IMG/VR virus record: IMGVR_UViG_3300037258_000549
Coordinates: 1-64,000 of that record
Length of the DNA: 64,000 bases
From: a virus
Taxonomy: Duplodnaviria > Heunggongvirae > Uroviricota > Caudoviricetes
Reading direction: 5' to 3' (one strand)
This document shows, piece after piece, positions 57,799 to 59,035 of the stretch. Numbering within the stretch: position 1 is the stretch's first letter; each line of letters begins with the position of its first letter. The position numbers and the translations under genes are program-made. A model generated the notes under the pieces. The model saw nothing but the letters and a program-made list of their open reading frames with translations. It made no database searches and was not told the origin of the DNA.

Positions 57799-58200
57799 TT
57801 ATTGCACCAGGGGCGCGTCCGCCACCACCCACTTGCCGCCTGCCTTGATTTCCACTTTCAGGTTGTCGGGAATCATGTCCTTGACGACGCGTTCCTCGGG
57901 CGAGGGTATCCCGCGCCGACGGTGCATCTCCCGTTGCAGCCAGACCTTGAACTTCGCTGTTTCGGTCATGCGCCTGAAGGCGAGCTTCTTATTGAGAAGC
58001 TGGGAACGTTCCTGCCTGGACTCACCGCGTGCCCCTGATGCGGTGTGGATTATCCGCACGCCTGTCTCTACCTTGTTCTGGTTCTGACCGCCGGGGCCGC
58101 CGGACCTGAACGTCTGCACGTCACAGTCAGCCAGGGTGACCGAGAACCAGGGGGTCTCCGAGTCACGTCTCGACACGGTAAACTCCCTCCTGCGGTACAC
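57799..58200 (-). CDS. RF-1-domain peptidyl-tRNA hydrolase (ArfB/ICT1-like ribosome-rescue factor)
   Basis: SGGPGGQNQNKVETGVRI (GGQ motif) plus a basic C-terminal tail (KKLAFRRM...HRRRG). Confidence 0.7.
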   Translation of the reverse strand: MYRRREFTVSRRDSETPWFSVTLADCDVQTFRSGGPGGQNQNKVETGVRIIHTASGARGESRQERSQLLNKKLAFRRMTETAKFKVWLQREMHRRRGIPSPEERVVKDMIPDNLKVEIKAGGKWVVADAPLVQ

Positions 58201-58349
58201 AGGCTGTTGGTAGGGCTGGCTGGTGTTTGGCAGCGGACCGTCAGCCTAGCACCTTGCTCGACAGCCCGCGTAAGATTCGGGGTAGCTTACCGCGGTCTGC
58301 TTGCCAGGAGCCAGCACGGAGCCGGAAGCCCTTACCTGATGGGGTTTTC

Positions 58350-58772
58350 ATGGCGAGCTTGTCCGCGATCCGCTCAGCTTTGGCAAGTCAGATTAGCAGC
58401 GTTACCGGGCTACGCACGCTACCCGAGGCGAAAGACCAGATTTCGCCGCCGGTCGCGGTGATCCTGCCGGGCCAGCCGGTGGTGACTTACGGTCAGACCA
58501 TGGACGGCGCGTTTGCCATAAACTTGCGTATCCTGATTGCGATCTCGGACGCACCGCCGGATGAGAAAGTACAGCGGGCCTTGGATGCCTATCTCGGTAT
58601 CGGCGCTAATGCGGGGACGAGCAGCATTCCGGCGGCTATCATGGCTGACCCGACACTCGGCGGGGTGGTGCATTTCGCTGAGCCACTCACCGCCGGGAAC
58701 TACGGTCAAATTAGTTACAACGGAATTACTTATTTCGGGTGCCGTCTAGAAGTCTCCATCGGTACAATCTAA
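58350..58772 (+). CDS. Hypothetical protein
   Basis: In-frame ATG. The upstream part of the ORF looks non-coding. Confidence 0.4.
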   Translation: MASLSAIRSALASQISSVTGLRTLPEAKDQISPPVAVILPGQPVVTYGQTMDGAFAINLRILIAISDAPPDEKVQRALDAYLGIGANAGTSSIPAAIMADPTLGGVVHFAEPLTAGNYGQISYNGITYFGCRLEVSIGTI

Positions 58773-58961
58773 TCTGGTGCTCGTACATCGGTACTATTAC
58801 ATTGAAGTGGTACCCGCCGCACTGGACAGAAAAAGGCCTCGTGGGGCCGCGGGCGTATGCGAAAGGCTGCCGGTGCGCGGCGTGCACGGAGGCGAACCGG
58901 GTGAAGCAGGCCGATTATCGGAAGCGGGTCGGGCGCAAGAAGTACGGGGGTAACTGGTTAG

Positions 58962-59035
58962 CGCCTCCAGTGGGCTTTGAACCCACAACAAACCGTTTTA
59001 GAGACGGCAACCCCTCCCGAGAGGGTCCTGGAGGC
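58962..59035 (-). tRNA. tRNA with anticodon CUA (amber suppressor; Trp-like anticodon loop CUCUAAA; discriminator G)
   Basis: Manual cloverleaf: 7-bp acceptor GCCTCCA/TGGAGGC, D stem ACCC/GGGT, anticodon stem GCCGT/ACGGT, loop CT-CTA-AA, 5-nt variable loop, T arm GTGGG-TTCAAAG-CCCAC. 74 nt, CCA not encoded. Confidence 0.6.

What the first reader, a model, noticed from the sequence alone, without database searches (positions are those of the whole stretch)
57799..59035. ArfB-like GGQ peptidyl-tRNA hydrolase and an amber-suppressor tRNA(CUA) in the same leftward module
- **Protein.** The - strand gene 57799-58200 encodes a 133-aa RF-1-domain protein with a GGQ motif (GPGGQNQNK) and a basic C-terminal tail, like the ribosome-rescue factors ArfB/ICT1.
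- **tRNA.** About 760 bp away on the same strand lies a textbook cloverleaf tRNA (58962-59035) whose anticodon loop CU-CUA-AA differs from a tRNA-Trp loop by one base. It reads UAG.
- **Stop-codon usage.** This genome segment clearly uses TAG as a stop (terminase 19336, epimerase 36776, GT-B 40811, K+ channel 57779, among others). The tRNA would therefore cause programmed readthrough or C-terminal extensions, or counteract host amber-based or tRNA-targeting defences.
- A phage pairing a suppressor tRNA with its own release/rescue factor suggests deliberate manipulation of translation termination.
Basis: partly seen in the sequence, partly recalled or inferred. Interest (0 to 1): 0.75.

Follow-up and report, generated by a model that had tools for sequence, protein, structure and literature searches.

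The report
Amber-gated hydrolase beside its suppressor tRNA
The phage's stop-codon-reading tRNA is real, and its consistent partner is an overlooked neighbouring peptidyl-tRNA-hydrolase-like gene with a conserved in-frame UAG stop just after its start codon, a three-part cassette found in at least 60 distinct phage and bacterial sequences.

Summary
The raw observations mostly hold. A tRNA with anticodon CUA lies at 58962-59035(-). A 125-133 aa GGQ/RF-1-domain protein lies at 57799-58200(-). TAG is an ordinary stop codon in this 64% GC phage.

The interpretation needs revising. The GGQ protein is a stand-alone RF1/RF2-type domain 3 of a phage family already annotated in over 200 mycobacteriophage records. 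It is not ArfB: it has no basic tail and only a marginal match. It is separated from the tRNA by an opposite-strand gene. It accompanies this kind of tRNA in only 2 of 35 related loci.

The tRNA's consistent partner is the gene just upstream (59217-59567, -), a Pth2-fold hydrolase. Its reading frame begins ATG-GAA-CCG-TAG, and the TAG sits immediately before the first core beta-strand.

Across 79 distinct homologues (GC 26-74%), 63 have Met plus 0-6 codons plus TAG at this position. Of 38 loci with enough flanking DNA, 35 have a tRNA(CUA) nearby. The one homologue with TGA has a tRNA(UCA).

GC-rich members share a third part, a small helical protein. Some copies sit in Actinomycetota chromosomes.

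Most likely, translation of the hydrolase depends on the suppressor tRNA. I found no prior description.

The parts
58962..59035 (-). Suppressor-type tRNA with anticodon CUA. The loop is CU-CUA-AA, the acceptor stem is GCCUCCA/UGGAGGC, the discriminator is G, and positions 8-9 are GG (no U8).
   Evidence: ARAGORN. Rfam tRNA 40.3 bits, E=1.2e-6. 15 of 21 pairs show compensatory changes across six orthologues.
59042..59248 (-). Small conserved helical protein of 68 aa (MEENMSWLQAKVAAQA...), function unknown. It overlaps the 3' end of the Pth2-like gene by 32 nt and ends 6 nt before the tRNA.
   Evidence: 78-87% amino-acid identity in five loci. Homologous 96-116 aa versions occur in other GC-rich clades, including chromosomal copies. 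No family assignment.
59217..59567 (-). Pth2-fold hydrolase-like gene reading M-E-P-[TAG]-VRLYAATHADLP.... An alternative in-frame ATG lies at 59574-59576. Gene callers report only 59217-59519.
   Evidence: Translation. Profile search of PDB gives Pth2 as top hits. AF2 model pLDDT 85; the top 11 Foldseek hits are ten Pth2 chains plus one uncharacterised protein of the same fold, all at probability 1.0. Beta1 (residues 2-8) is encoded between the TAG and the first canonical start.
59556..59558 (-). Conserved in-frame TAG (the 'gate'), codon 4 from the ATG at 59565-59567, followed by G.
   Evidence: Same position in 63 of 79 distinct homologues. 24 of 25 leader types end in TAG, p=6e-11. The base after TAG is a purine in 61 of 62. 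L030 has TGA with tRNA(UCA).
59580..59585 (-). TATAGT, a -10-like hexamer upstream of the leader ATGs.
   Evidence: TANNNT-type hexamers lie 6-7 nt before the ATG in most GC-rich relatives. In the window the spacing is 3 nt to the first ATG and 12 nt to the second. Read from sequence only; promoter function is inferred.
57799..58200 (-). Stand-alone RF-1 (GGQ) domain protein. The likely true start is the GTG at 58174-58176, after GGAGGGAG. It is a neighbour of the cassette, not a conserved part of it.
   Evidence: Pfam RF-1 E=3.3e-16. PHROG 3122 E=9.6e-40. At least 800 homologues of 105-135 aa. Fold matches RF1/RF2 domain 3.
58350..58772 (+). Tail-terminator-like gene on the opposite strand, separating the RF-1 gene from the tRNA.
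   Evidence: PHROG 17840 E=1.8e-19, residues 42-178 of ORF 58227-58772.

Best explanation
The tRNA(CUA) belongs to a conserved three-part cassette transcribed leftward: (1) a Pth2-fold (peptidyl-tRNA-hydrolase-like) gene, (2) a small helical protein, and (3) the suppressor tRNA.

**Proposed mechanism**
- The hydrolase gene starts at an ATG and meets an in-frame UAG after three codons. Only after that UAG does it encode the first core beta-strand of the domain.
- A full-length protein can therefore be made only when the UAG is decoded. The neighbouring tRNA(CUA) is the obvious decoder, competing with host RF1.
- Hydrolase output would thus be tied to suppressor activity, or equivalently to weak RF1 termination.

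**Shown versus inferred**
- *Shown by comparison:* the positional conservation of the stop, the matching of stop codon and anticodon, the linkage to the tRNA, and the coding constraint downstream of the stop.
- *Inferred:* that readthrough happens, and which amino acid is inserted.
- *More speculative:* I think the most likely purpose is to scale a peptidyl-tRNA-clearing or tRNA-recycling activity to the amount of stop-codon readthrough and peptidyl-tRNA drop-off in a genome that still uses TAG as a stop.

In this phage the RF-1-domain protein is probably a separate, codon-independent release or rescue factor. It co-localises because such genes gather in phage tRNA and translation islands.
For: - **Gate in the window:** the frame reads ATG GAA CCG TAG GTA CGT CTT TAC.
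- **Close relatives:** five close relatives have M-TAG or MEP-TAG followed by VRLY.
- **Wider survey of 97 loci, 79 distinct genes:** 63 have Met within 6 codons plus TAG, and the body of about 100-118 codons is uninterrupted.
- **Leader types:** of 25 distinct leader peptides across GC 0.26-0.74, 24 end in TAG (p=6e-11).
- **Linkage to the tRNA:** 35 of 38 TAG-leader loci with enough flank have a tRNA(CUA) on the same strand.
- **Codon/anticodon covariation:** L030 has M-T-H-TGA and a tRNA(UCA) 50 nt upstream.
- **No independent start:** there is no ATG, GTG or TTG between the TAG and the RxDL anchor in 46 of 62 cases. In most of the rest it is a GTG valine codon inside beta1.
- **Suppression context:** the base after the TAG is a purine in 61 of 62 cases.
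- **Coding constraint after the TAG:** differences by codon position are 25, 19 and 81; 59 codon differences are synonymous and 36 nonsynonymous.
- **Fold:** Pth2, with beta1 modelled at pLDDT about 91.
- **tRNA under selection:** compensatory changes in 15 of 21 pairs. Rfam confirms 16 of 20 sampled tRNAs.
- **Not a recoded genome:** this is the only such gate in the window, TAG is a normal stop, and neighbours of the chromosomal copies also end in TAG.
Against: - There is no experimental evidence of readthrough, and the amino acid inserted is unknown.
- The position equivalent to the catalytic Lys of Pth2 is variable in this family, so hydrolase activity and substrate are unproven.
- The window protein does not reach Pfam's PTH2 threshold. 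The window ORF gave no hit, and L008 scored 22.2 against 23.
- 3 of 38 informative TAG-leader loci show no tRNA(CUA) in the DNA held.
- 8 of 79 genes also end in TAG, and L030 also ends in TGA, so their own terminal stop would be exposed to the suppressor.
- Nine ungated members show that the gate is not obligatory.
- In the window, the -10-like hexamer is not at the spacing seen in relatives.
- The 80 metagenome loci are the best hits to this clade, not a random sample of the 3,121-cluster family.
Confidence: 0.72

Rival explanations
1. Negative-feedback governor. The Pth2-like enzyme acts on the suppressor tRNA itself by removing its aminoacyl or peptidyl group. More suppression would then produce more enzyme and so less charged suppressor, holding readthrough at a low, tolerable level in a genome that uses TAG as a stop.
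For: - It rests on the same gate and linkage evidence.
- The cassette also lives in standard-code Actinomycetota chromosomes, where unchecked suppression should be harmful.
- The catalytic Lys position is not conserved, which hints at an altered substrate.
- Genuine TAG stops avoid a following purine.
Against: - Nothing here bears on substrate specificity.
- Ungated members with an adjacent tRNA(CUA) (L008, L039, L085, L086, L100, L102, L103) would lack the feedback.
- Classical Pth enzymes do not deacylate free aminoacyl-tRNA (established knowledge).
Confidence: 0.25
2. RF1 sensor, analogous to prfB autoregulation. The early UAG measures how well RF1 terminates. When RF1 activity drops, through stress, a toxin or phage takeover, the tRNA wins the competition and the hydrolase is induced to clear stalled or dropped-off peptidyl-tRNA.
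For: - The gate is always within the first 2-8 codons.
- The leader and TAG context are invariant at nucleotide level within clades.
- Some copies lie next to RNA-repair genes such as Pnkp, and the window and L012 carry Ro60.
- The precedent of the in-frame UGA in prfB is established knowledge.
Against: This is purely an analogy. No data on RF1 levels exist, and the model does not explain why the tRNA must be encoded alongside rather than relying on near-cognate readthrough.
Confidence: 0.2
3. The suppressor tRNA and an ArfB-like rescue factor form a functional pair that creates C-terminal extensions or counters host defences, with the GGQ protein rescuing ribosomes that read through.
For: - The two lie within 762 bp in the window.
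- An RF-1-domain gene lies 1.8 kb from a tRNA(CUA) in the unrelated AT-rich contig L008. That makes 1 of 7 RF-1-bearing viral loci carrying the cassette.
Against: - RF-1 is absent from the other 33 cassette loci of at least 6 kb.
- The family usually sits in ordinary tRNA arrays.
- The protein is not ArfB-like in tail, profile or fold rank.
- An opposite-strand gene intervenes.
- No coding-like extensions follow the TAG stops.
Confidence: 0.15
4. The TAG simply ends a tiny upstream ORF. The Pth2-like protein starts independently at a downstream or non-canonical codon, and the nearby tRNA(CUA) is incidental.
For: - 16 of 62 genes have a GTG, TTG or ATG between the TAG and the RxDL anchor.
- Gene callers do find shorter ORFs.
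Against: - The stop is TAG in 24 of 25 leader types whatever the GC content, although TAA would be expected in AT-rich DNA and TGA in GC-rich DNA.
- The stop switches to TGA exactly where the tRNA is UCA.
- 46 of 62 genes have no start codon available.
- Starting downstream would delete core strand beta1.
- The stretch after the TAG evolves as coding sequence.
Confidence: 0.06
5. The phage uses an alternative code in which TAG is a sense codon throughout (code 15), and the TAG in this gene is one of many.
For: A suppressor tRNA is present, and recoded phages are known (Borges et al.).
Against: - No other coding-strand gene in 64 kb has an internal TAG with coding signal on both sides. The one candidate, at 41306, is a TAG-CAT-ATG gene junction.
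- TAG ends about 17 of 87 genes, and the terminase ends where its homologues end.
- In 79 Pth2-like genes the TAG is only at the 5' end.
Confidence: 0.03

Closest known systems
Suppressor tRNAs and 'code-change modules' of stop-codon-recoded gut phages (Borges et al., bioRxiv 10.1101/2021.08.26.457843)
   Same: Both have a phage-encoded suppressor tRNA clustered with translation-termination genes, and in-frame stops that make some genes depend on the suppressor.
   Different: - Those phages are low-GC, are depleted in the recoded stop, and carry many in-frame stops in late and lysis genes.
- Their module contains an aaRS and a full-length RF1 or RF2 and is itself written in standard code.
- Here the genome is 64% GC and TAG is a normal stop.
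- Here the single gate lies inside the module, at codons 2-8 of a Pth2-like gene.
- The paper's main text never uses 'peptidyl' (0 occurrences), so no Pth is mentioned there.
PTH2 genes of jumbo phages (Iyer et al. 2021, PMC7824862)
   Same: An archaeo-eukaryotic-type Pth2 fold encoded by phages, proposed to hydrolyse peptidyl-tRNA during ribosome rescue.
   Different: That paper never uses the word 'suppressor', and the PTH2 passages retrieved say nothing about an in-frame stop. The present family is divergent (below Pfam threshold, catalytic Lys position variable) and also occurs in mid-sized actinophages and in bacterial chromosomes.
Stand-alone 'RF-1 domain peptide chain release factor' of mycobacteriophages (PHROG 3122; clusters C and M-like, e.g. 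ScottMcG gp204, prophiGD54-2 gp125)
   Same: The window protein matches this family at E=9.6e-40, with 50-59% identity. In prophiGD54-2 the gene sits inside a tRNA array next to a tmRNA and RtcB.
   Different: Those phages have no CUA tRNA at the locus. The window phage is unrelated to them overall (no megablast hit; terminase about 35% identical to Rhodococcus phages).
ArfB / ICT1 (codon-independent ribosome rescue factors)
   Same: A GGQ catalytic domain without codon-recognition domains.
   Different: - There is no long basic C-terminal tail (net +2 against +13).
- NCBIfam ArfB scores 28.8 bits against a cutoff of 100, over residues 20-53 only.
- Foldseek E=0.02 against 2e-5 for RF1/RF2 domain 3.
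prfB (RF2) autoregulation by an early in-frame UGA (own knowledge)
   Same: An in-frame stop early in a translation-termination-related gene makes expression depend on competition between a release factor and an alternative decoding event.
   Different: prfB uses a +1 frameshift at codon 26 and senses its own product. Here the alternative event would be decoding by a dedicated suppressor tRNA encoded next door, and the gated product is not a release factor.
Lambda bar minigenes and Pth (own knowledge)
   Same: Very short ORFs of 2-4 codons ending in a stop are functionally linked to peptidyl-tRNA drop-off and peptidyl-tRNA hydrolase.
   Different: bar minigenes are toxic stand-alone mini-ORFs acting on host Pth. 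Here the mini-ORF is in frame with, and fused through the stop to, a hydrolase gene.

Membership tests
ArfB (alternative ribosome rescue factor B) | GGQ-containing RF-1 catalytic domain | tested here: met
   Pfam PF00472 E=3.3e-16; GPGGQNQNK at residues 35-43.
ArfB (alternative ribosome rescue factor B) | Long, strongly basic C-terminal tail that occupies the empty mRNA channel | tested here: not met
   The last 40 residues have net charge +2 (8 K/R, 6 D/E), against +13 for E. coli ArfB. The C-terminus is a conserved folded helix plus beta-hairpin with an invariant Trp.
ArfB (alternative ribosome rescue factor B) | Score above the curated family cutoff, with ArfB as the closest fold | tested here: not met
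   NCBIfam NF006718 scores 28.8 bits against a cutoff of 100, over residues 20-53 only. Foldseek gives ArfB 6yss E=0.02 and TM 0.35, ranked 49th behind RF1, RF2 and PrfH.
PrfH (release factor H, partner of RtcB) | Full-length match including the N-terminal domain that recognises damaged ribosomes | tested here: not met
   TIGR03072 scores 53.5 bits against a cutoff of 166.65, matching only profile positions 106-163. The protein is 125-133 aa against about 200.
PrfH (release factor H, partner of RtcB) | Adjacent RtcB RNA ligase gene | not tested
   None of the window ORFs I scanned near the RF-1 gene gave an RtcB-family hit, but I made no dedicated RtcB search of the window. A relative in prophiGD54-2 does sit next to RtcB.
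Phage stand-alone RF-1 domain family (PHROG 3122) | Near full-length profile match | tested here: met
   E=9.6e-40, residues 10-127 matching profile positions 16-130 of 136. 241 phage records hold homologues.
Pth2 (peptidyl-tRNA hydrolase 2, PF01981) | Pth2 alpha/beta fold | tested here: met
   AF2 model pLDDT 85. The top 11 Foldseek PDB hits are ten Pth2 chains plus one uncharacterised protein of the same fold (2gax), all at probability 1.0, TM 0.56-0.66. Profile against PDB sequences gives Pth2 at E=1.6e-4.
Pth2 (peptidyl-tRNA hydrolase 2, PF01981) | Score above Pfam gathering threshold | tested here: inconclusive
   The 100-aa window ORF gave no PTH2 hit at E up to 10. L008 scored 22.2 bits against 23. 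Homologue P0014 carries a precomputed PF01981 hit.
Pth2 (peptidyl-tRNA hydrolase 2, PF01981) | Conserved catalytic residues (Lys in the GKGK segment, Asp in the DAG segment; from memory of the Sulfolobus Pth2 work) | tested here: inconclusive
   The Q..HA motif and an acidic E-P-D motif are conserved, but the position aligned with the Lys is variable.
Pth2 (peptidyl-tRNA hydrolase 2, PF01981) | Hydrolysis of peptidyl-tRNA | not testable with these tools
   Needs an enzyme assay.
Amber suppressor tRNA | Canonical cloverleaf scoring as a tRNA, with anticodon CUA | tested here: met
   Orthologues show compensatory changes in 15 of 21 pairs.
Amber suppressor tRNA | Aminoacylated and decodes UAG on the ribosome | not testable with these tools
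   Indirect support only: a conserved in-frame UAG in the neighbouring gene and the TGA/UCA covariation.
tRNA-Pyl (ARAGORN's label) | 6-bp anticodon stem, 3-nt variable loop, a single base between acceptor and D stems (from memory) | tested here: not met
   The Rfam alignment shows a 5-bp anticodon stem, a 5-nt variable loop and two bases (GG) at positions 8-9. The label follows from the anticodon alone.
TAG-recoded (code 15) phage | Many genes interrupted by in-frame TAG, with TAG rarely used as a stop | tested here: not met
   There is one gate in 64 kb. TAG ends 17 of 87 called genes.
'Code-change module' of recoded phages | Suppressor tRNA plus aminoacyl-tRNA synthetase plus full-length RF1 or RF2 | tested here: not met
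   The RF is only a 125-133 aa catalytic domain. No aaRS turned up among the ORFs scanned near the module, but the whole window was not scanned.

The most novel reading that the evidence does not exclude
The cassette is a self-contained natural 'amber switch'. A dedicated suppressor tRNA would serve mainly to gate translation of its neighbouring Pth2-like gene, with the small helical protein as a third component. Together they would form a mobile sensor or regulator of translation-termination status that moves between phages and standard-code bacterial chromosomes. That would be a natural counterpart of the synthetic amber-gated circuits used in genetic-code engineering, and a new class of tRNA-based gene regulation.
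Probability: 0.35. Interest if true: 0.9.

Novelty: new variant of a known kind. Interest (0 to 1): 0.8.

Why it matters
- **Natural suppressors in standard-code genomes.** Natural amber suppressor tRNAs in genomes that still use TAG as a stop are rare and puzzling. This one comes with a conserved, positionally fixed in-frame stop in the adjacent gene. The stop codon changes together with the anticodon, across phages of 26-74% GC and some Actinomycetota chromosomes.
- **A testable system.** This gives a concrete setting for studying how cells and phages tolerate, regulate or exploit stop-codon suppression. It also suggests a route by which code change might begin, with a suppressor that has a single dedicated target.
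- **Annotation errors.** Gene callers systematically truncate these genes, so the family is mis-annotated in public databases.
- **A possible tool.** The tRNA with its leader context could be a naturally tuned orthogonal readthrough part for high-GC hosts.
- **The original claim.** The GGQ protein on its own is an ordinary member of a known phage family.

Tried and rejected
**Searches for relatives that gave little or nothing**
- Megablast of the locus against phages found nothing.
- blastn and an exact-pattern search for close relatives of the tRNA in phages and viral contigs found nothing useful.
- Exact-protein lookups for the RF-1 ORF and for P0001 failed, so I could not read the remaining ~27 kb of the 90.8 kb source contig. 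A lookup with ORF 62895-63218 returned only a related 8.5 kb contig (L106) that does not reach the module.

**Readthrough and recoding tests**
- The candidate readthrough site at 41306 is a TAG-CAT-ATG gene junction where the second ORF has its own start.
- ORF coverage under code 11 versus TAG-as-sense saturates for GC-rich DNA. It showed no TAG-specific gain in AT-rich relatives, so recoding there is unsupported but not excluded.
- The scan for the same gate architecture in 282 kb of GC-rich relatives found no further convincing gated genes. The other hits were mostly antisense-like. The single AT-rich-type exception is the gene after the Pth2-like gene in L091.

**Other dead ends**
- E. coli-type promoter and terminator scans were uninformative.
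- The trailer after the tRNA has no significant structure.
- tRNA identity could not be settled. The features are G1-C72 in 47 of 56, a variable discriminator base, no U1-A72 and no long variable arm. That excludes Tyr, Leu and Ser types and argues against a typical bacterial tRNA-Gln, leaving Lys, Glu/Gln or Trp (identity rules from memory).
- Literature searches for Pth2 with suppressor tRNA in phages found nothing.
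Full report
**1. Checking the observation**

ARAGORN reports a tRNA with anticodon CTA at 58961-59035(-). Rfam's tRNA model did not report it in the whole-window scan. It scores 40.3 bits against a gathering score of 29 (E=1.2e-6) when the region is searched with laxer filters. 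The earlier miss was therefore a filter effect. The Rfam alignment gives a 7-bp acceptor stem, the anticodon loop C-U-CUA-A-A, a 5-nt variable loop and discriminator G. Positions 8-9 are GG, where a typical tRNA has U8.

The ORF at 57799-58200(-) matches Pfam RF-1 at E=3.3e-16 and contains GPGGQNQNK.

TAG is a working stop codon here. A crude GC3-based gene list gives 48 genes ending in TGA, 22 in TAA and 17 in TAG. The terminase aligns with homologues to residue 665 of 666, right up to its TAG. These three raw observations stand.

**2. The GGQ protein is a known phage family and is not ArfB**

- It matches PHROG 3122, 'RF-1 domain peptide chain release factor', at E=9.6e-40.
- It has homologues annotated that way in 241 phage records, mostly mycobacteriophages.
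- At least 800 homologues of 105-135 aa exist in metagenomes.
- By sequence it is closest to domain 3 of mtRF1, RF1 and RF2 and to PrfH. The ArfB model matches only residues 20-53, at 28.8 bits against a cutoff of 100.
- An AlphaFold model (pLDDT 86) matches RF1/RF2 domain 3 at E about 2e-5 and PrfH at 1e-3. ArfB, ICT1 and mtRF-R match only at about 0.02.
- The last 40 residues have net charge +2, against +13 for E. coli ArfB, whose sequence I quote from memory. They form a conserved helix plus hairpin with an invariant Trp.
- The likely start is the GTG at 58174-58176, after GGAGGGAG.

In relatives the gene often sits in ordinary tRNA arrays. In prophiGD54-2 it lies between tRNA-Asp and tRNA-Glu, next to a tmRNA and RtcB.

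In the window a + strand tail-terminator-like gene (58350-58772) separates it from the tRNA. The two are therefore not one transcription unit.

**3. The overlooked partner**

One RF-1-bearing viral contig, L008 (34% GC), also has a tRNA(CUA). In L008 and in the window, the ORF just upstream of the tRNA is homologous (BLASTP E=4e-7). The L008 copy hits Pfam PTH2 at E=1.8e-4.

The window ORF as listed (59217-59519) lacks the first beta-strand of that domain. Reading further upstream in the same frame gives ATG GAA CCG TAG GTA CGT CTT TAC ..., that is M-E-P-[TAG]-V-R-L-Y-A-A-T-H-A-D-L-P.

- A profile of the family finds only Pth2 structures at the top of PDB (1rzw, 2zv3, 1q7s). 'VRLY' aligns to residues 1-4 of M. 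jannaschii Pth2.
- An AlphaFold model (pLDDT 85) has Pth2 chains as ten of its top 11 Foldseek hits. The eleventh (2gax) is an uncharacterised protein of the same fold. All are at probability 1.0, with TM 0.56-0.66.
- Residues 2-8 form a confidently modelled core strand.

That strand is encoded between the TAG and the first canonical start codon.

**4. Comparative evidence**

*Close relatives.* Database homologues of the protein are mostly called from internal Met or Val codons. For four of them I fetched the DNA. All read M-TAG-VRLY or M-E-P-TAG-VRLY, and all have a tRNA(CUA) 525-925 nt downstream of the domain start on the same strand.

*Wider survey.* Profile-guided scans added 80 metagenome loci and 10 genome loci. 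Across 97 loci and 79 distinct genes:
- 63 genes have a TAG preceded by Met within six codons. One has TGA. Nine have no stop.
- The gene body of about 100-118 codons is otherwise uninterrupted.
- There are 25 distinct leader peptides (M, MK, MT, MEP, MPHT, MSHR, MKDT, MKFT and others) in DNA of 26-74% GC. Twenty-four end in TAG (binomial p=6e-11 against 1/3).
- Of 38 TAG-leader loci with at least 700 nt upstream and 1500 nt downstream, 35 have a tRNA(CUA).

*Covariation.* The single TGA leader (L030, M-T-H-TGA) has a tRNA(UCA) 50 nt upstream. Rfam confirms that tRNA at 73 bits.

*No independent start.* In 46 of 62 cases there is no ATG, GTG or TTG between the TAG and the RxDL anchor. In most of the remaining 16 it is a GTG valine codon inside the strand.

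*Context.* The base after the gating TAG is a purine in 61 of 62 cases. This is the context that, from established work on amber suppression, favours suppressor tRNAs.

*Coding constraint.* The 12 codons after the TAG differ mainly at third positions (25, 19 and 81 differences by codon position), as expected for translated sequence.

*Promoter-like signal.* Most GC-rich clades have a TANNNT-type hexamer 6-7 nt before the ATG. This is the geometry of leaderless actinobacterial mRNAs and supports that ATG as the start. In the window the hexamer TATAGT is 3 nt from the first ATG and 12 nt from the second.

*The tRNAs.* They show compensatory changes in 15 of 21 pairs. Rfam confirms 16 of 20 sampled.

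**5. A three-part cassette that is not confined to phages**

Between the hydrolase gene and the tRNA lies a 68-aa ORF (59042-59248). It is 78-87% identical among close relatives. It is recognisably homologous, as a 96-116 aa protein, in the other GC-rich clades. It has no family assignment.

In L096 the cassette sits at 1.68 Mb of a 2.08 Mb Actinomycetota contig. Its neighbours are a histidine kinase, an ECF sigma factor, a dehydrogenase and a beta-lactamase. In L098 it lies beside a Pnkp RNA-repair enzyme and a transposase. Neighbouring genes there end in TAG, so these are standard-code genomes.

Ungated family members exist (for example L008, L039, L085, L086, L100, L102 and L103). These have the tRNA(CUA) immediately after the gene. 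L063 has a tRNA(UUA) instead.

The wider family has 3,121 cluster representatives at E up to 1e-3. It contains both gated and ungated members, and many are truncated by gene callers. My 80 metagenome loci are the best hits to this clade, so the 80% gated fraction should not be extrapolated to the whole family.

**6. Not a recoded genome**

Scans for stops with coding signal on both sides found one + strand TAG candidate worth a look, at 41306. It is an ordinary TAG-CAT-ATG junction. The 'start, a few codons, stop, then a long ORF without a start' architecture occurs once on a coding strand in the window, at 59558.

Genuine TAG stops in the window are followed by a pyrimidine in 14 of 17 cases, against 33 of 70 for TGA and TAA (p=0.013). 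This contrasts sharply with the gating TAGs (p=8e-12). The gene list is crude, so this is only suggestive. It fits selection against suppression at real stops. The terminase TAG is followed by TAA two codons later.

**7. How it most likely works**

*Shown by comparison:*
- A stop codon fixed just before the first strand of a Pth2-fold domain.
- Matching between that stop codon and the anticodon of a linked suppressor tRNA.
- Coding constraint beyond the stop.

*Inferred:*
- Translation starts at the leader ATG and continues only when the tRNA decodes the stop in competition with RF1.
- Hydrolase output therefore tracks suppressor activity.

*Purpose.* This is less certain. My preferred reading is that a peptidyl-tRNA-clearing or tRNA-recycling activity is scaled to readthrough and drop-off. 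The alternatives are a negative-feedback governor acting on the suppressor itself, and an RF1-level sensor analogous to prfB.

*Amino acid inserted.* This is unknown. The tRNAs have G1-C72 in 47 of 56 cases, a variable discriminator base and no long variable arm. From identity rules I recall, that leaves Lys, Glu/Gln or Trp.

*The RF-1-domain protein.* It is best seen as a separate accessory factor of the same translation island. It accompanies the cassette in only 2 of 35 loci of at least 6 kb.

**8. Comparison with what is known**

- Borges et al. describe suppressor tRNAs and 'code-change modules' (tRNA plus aaRS plus full-length RF) in low-GC recoded gut phages. Those modules are written in standard code, and the in-frame stops lie in late genes.
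- Iyer et al. note PTH2 in jumbo phages. Their paper never mentions suppressors, and the PTH2 passages retrieved say nothing about in-frame stops.
- Searches combining Pth2 or peptidyl-tRNA hydrolase with suppressor tRNA and phage found nothing relevant.

I therefore rate the cassette as a new variant of known kinds (phage suppressor tRNAs and recoding-based autoregulation). The literature held is incomplete, and that is a caveat. The GGQ protein alone is a new member of a known family.

**9. Verdict**

Interest is 0.8. My confidence that the Pth2-like gene depends on the suppressor is about 0.72.

Noticed in passing
window 8723-8824 (+) and 9742-11481 (+): A Ro60 orthologue (Pfam TROVE E=5.8e-38, vWA_Ro60 E=6.1e-58). 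About 1 kb upstream are a tRNA-like element (Rfam tRNA, 30.2 bits) and an overlapping YrlA (Y RNA-like) match of 29.4 bits, below its gathering score of 69. This is a candidate phage Rsr/Y-RNA pair. L012 also carries a TROVE gene near its cassette.
   Followed up: partly
window 60038-60110 (-): ARAGORN calls a tRNA-Ile(GAT) here. Rfam finds no tRNA at E up to 10, the fold is poor, and it lies inside the cupin-like ORF 59643-60152 (PHROG 4786, E=1.3e-30). It is probably a false positive.
   Followed up: partly
window 58350-58772 (+): A tail-terminator-like gene (PHROG 17840, E=1.8e-19) sits alone on the + strand between two leftward features, away from the main structural block at about 17-55 kb.
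   Followed up: no
window 60982-62205 (-): A 407-aa ORF whose C-terminal part matches the Rv2179c-like 3'-5' exoribonuclease domain (E=7.5e-6, 26.2 bits against a cutoff of 27). This is another RNA-processing candidate close to the tRNA cassette.
   Followed up: no
window, all called genes: Genuine TAG stops are followed by a pyrimidine in 14 of 17 cases, against 33 of 70 for TGA and TAA stops (Fisher p=0.013). This could reflect adaptation of real stops to the presence of a suppressor. The gene list is crude.
   Followed up: partly
window 57467-57781 (+): The K+ channel-like gene (Pfam Ion_trans_2, E=6.6e-11) ends in TAG followed by A. If read through, it would extend 101 codons, antisense to the RF-1 gene. 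Among the TAG-ended genes on the main (+) coding strand it is the only one that combines a purine after the TAG with a long open extension.
   Followed up: no
L091 about 4345-4620 (+): The gene after the Pth2-like gene also begins M-R-T-TAG, followed by IDSRDRDPIVFHFNRAHLQDASVPMWV. It belongs to a small family found downstream of the Pth2-like gene in 12 loci, whose other members start with a normal ATG. It may be a second gated gene.
   Followed up: partly
L096 6000-6760; L098 6000-11000: The cassette occurs inside a 2.08 Mb Actinomycetota chromosome contig among housekeeping genes. In another MAG it lies next to a Pnkp RNA-repair ligase (Pfam PNKP_ligase, E=3e-172) and a DDE transposase. Natural amber suppressor genes therefore exist in standard-code bacterial chromosomes.
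   Followed up: partly
L017 511-1006 (+): A GOLLD RNA (Rfam RF02032, 167.9 bits) enclosing a tRNA lies about 2.3 kb upstream of this locus's tRNA(CUA), which itself lies about 0.7 kb upstream of the Pth2-like gene.
   Followed up: no
tRNAs of L012, L014, L015, L016 and the GC-rich clade generally: Four cassette tRNAs have C33 instead of the near-universal U33 (loop CCCUAAA). The GC-rich clade, including the window, lacks U8 (positions 8-9 are GG, GA or AG). These unusual features may affect processing, charging or decoding.
   Followed up: no
public protein databases (P0001-P0017, P0138-P0165): Gene callers start gated Pth2-like genes at internal Met or GTG codons, so they are deposited as 73-105 aa fragments or as 'MVTRADL...' forms that lack the leader and part of beta1. 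This is a systematic annotation artefact.
   Followed up: yes
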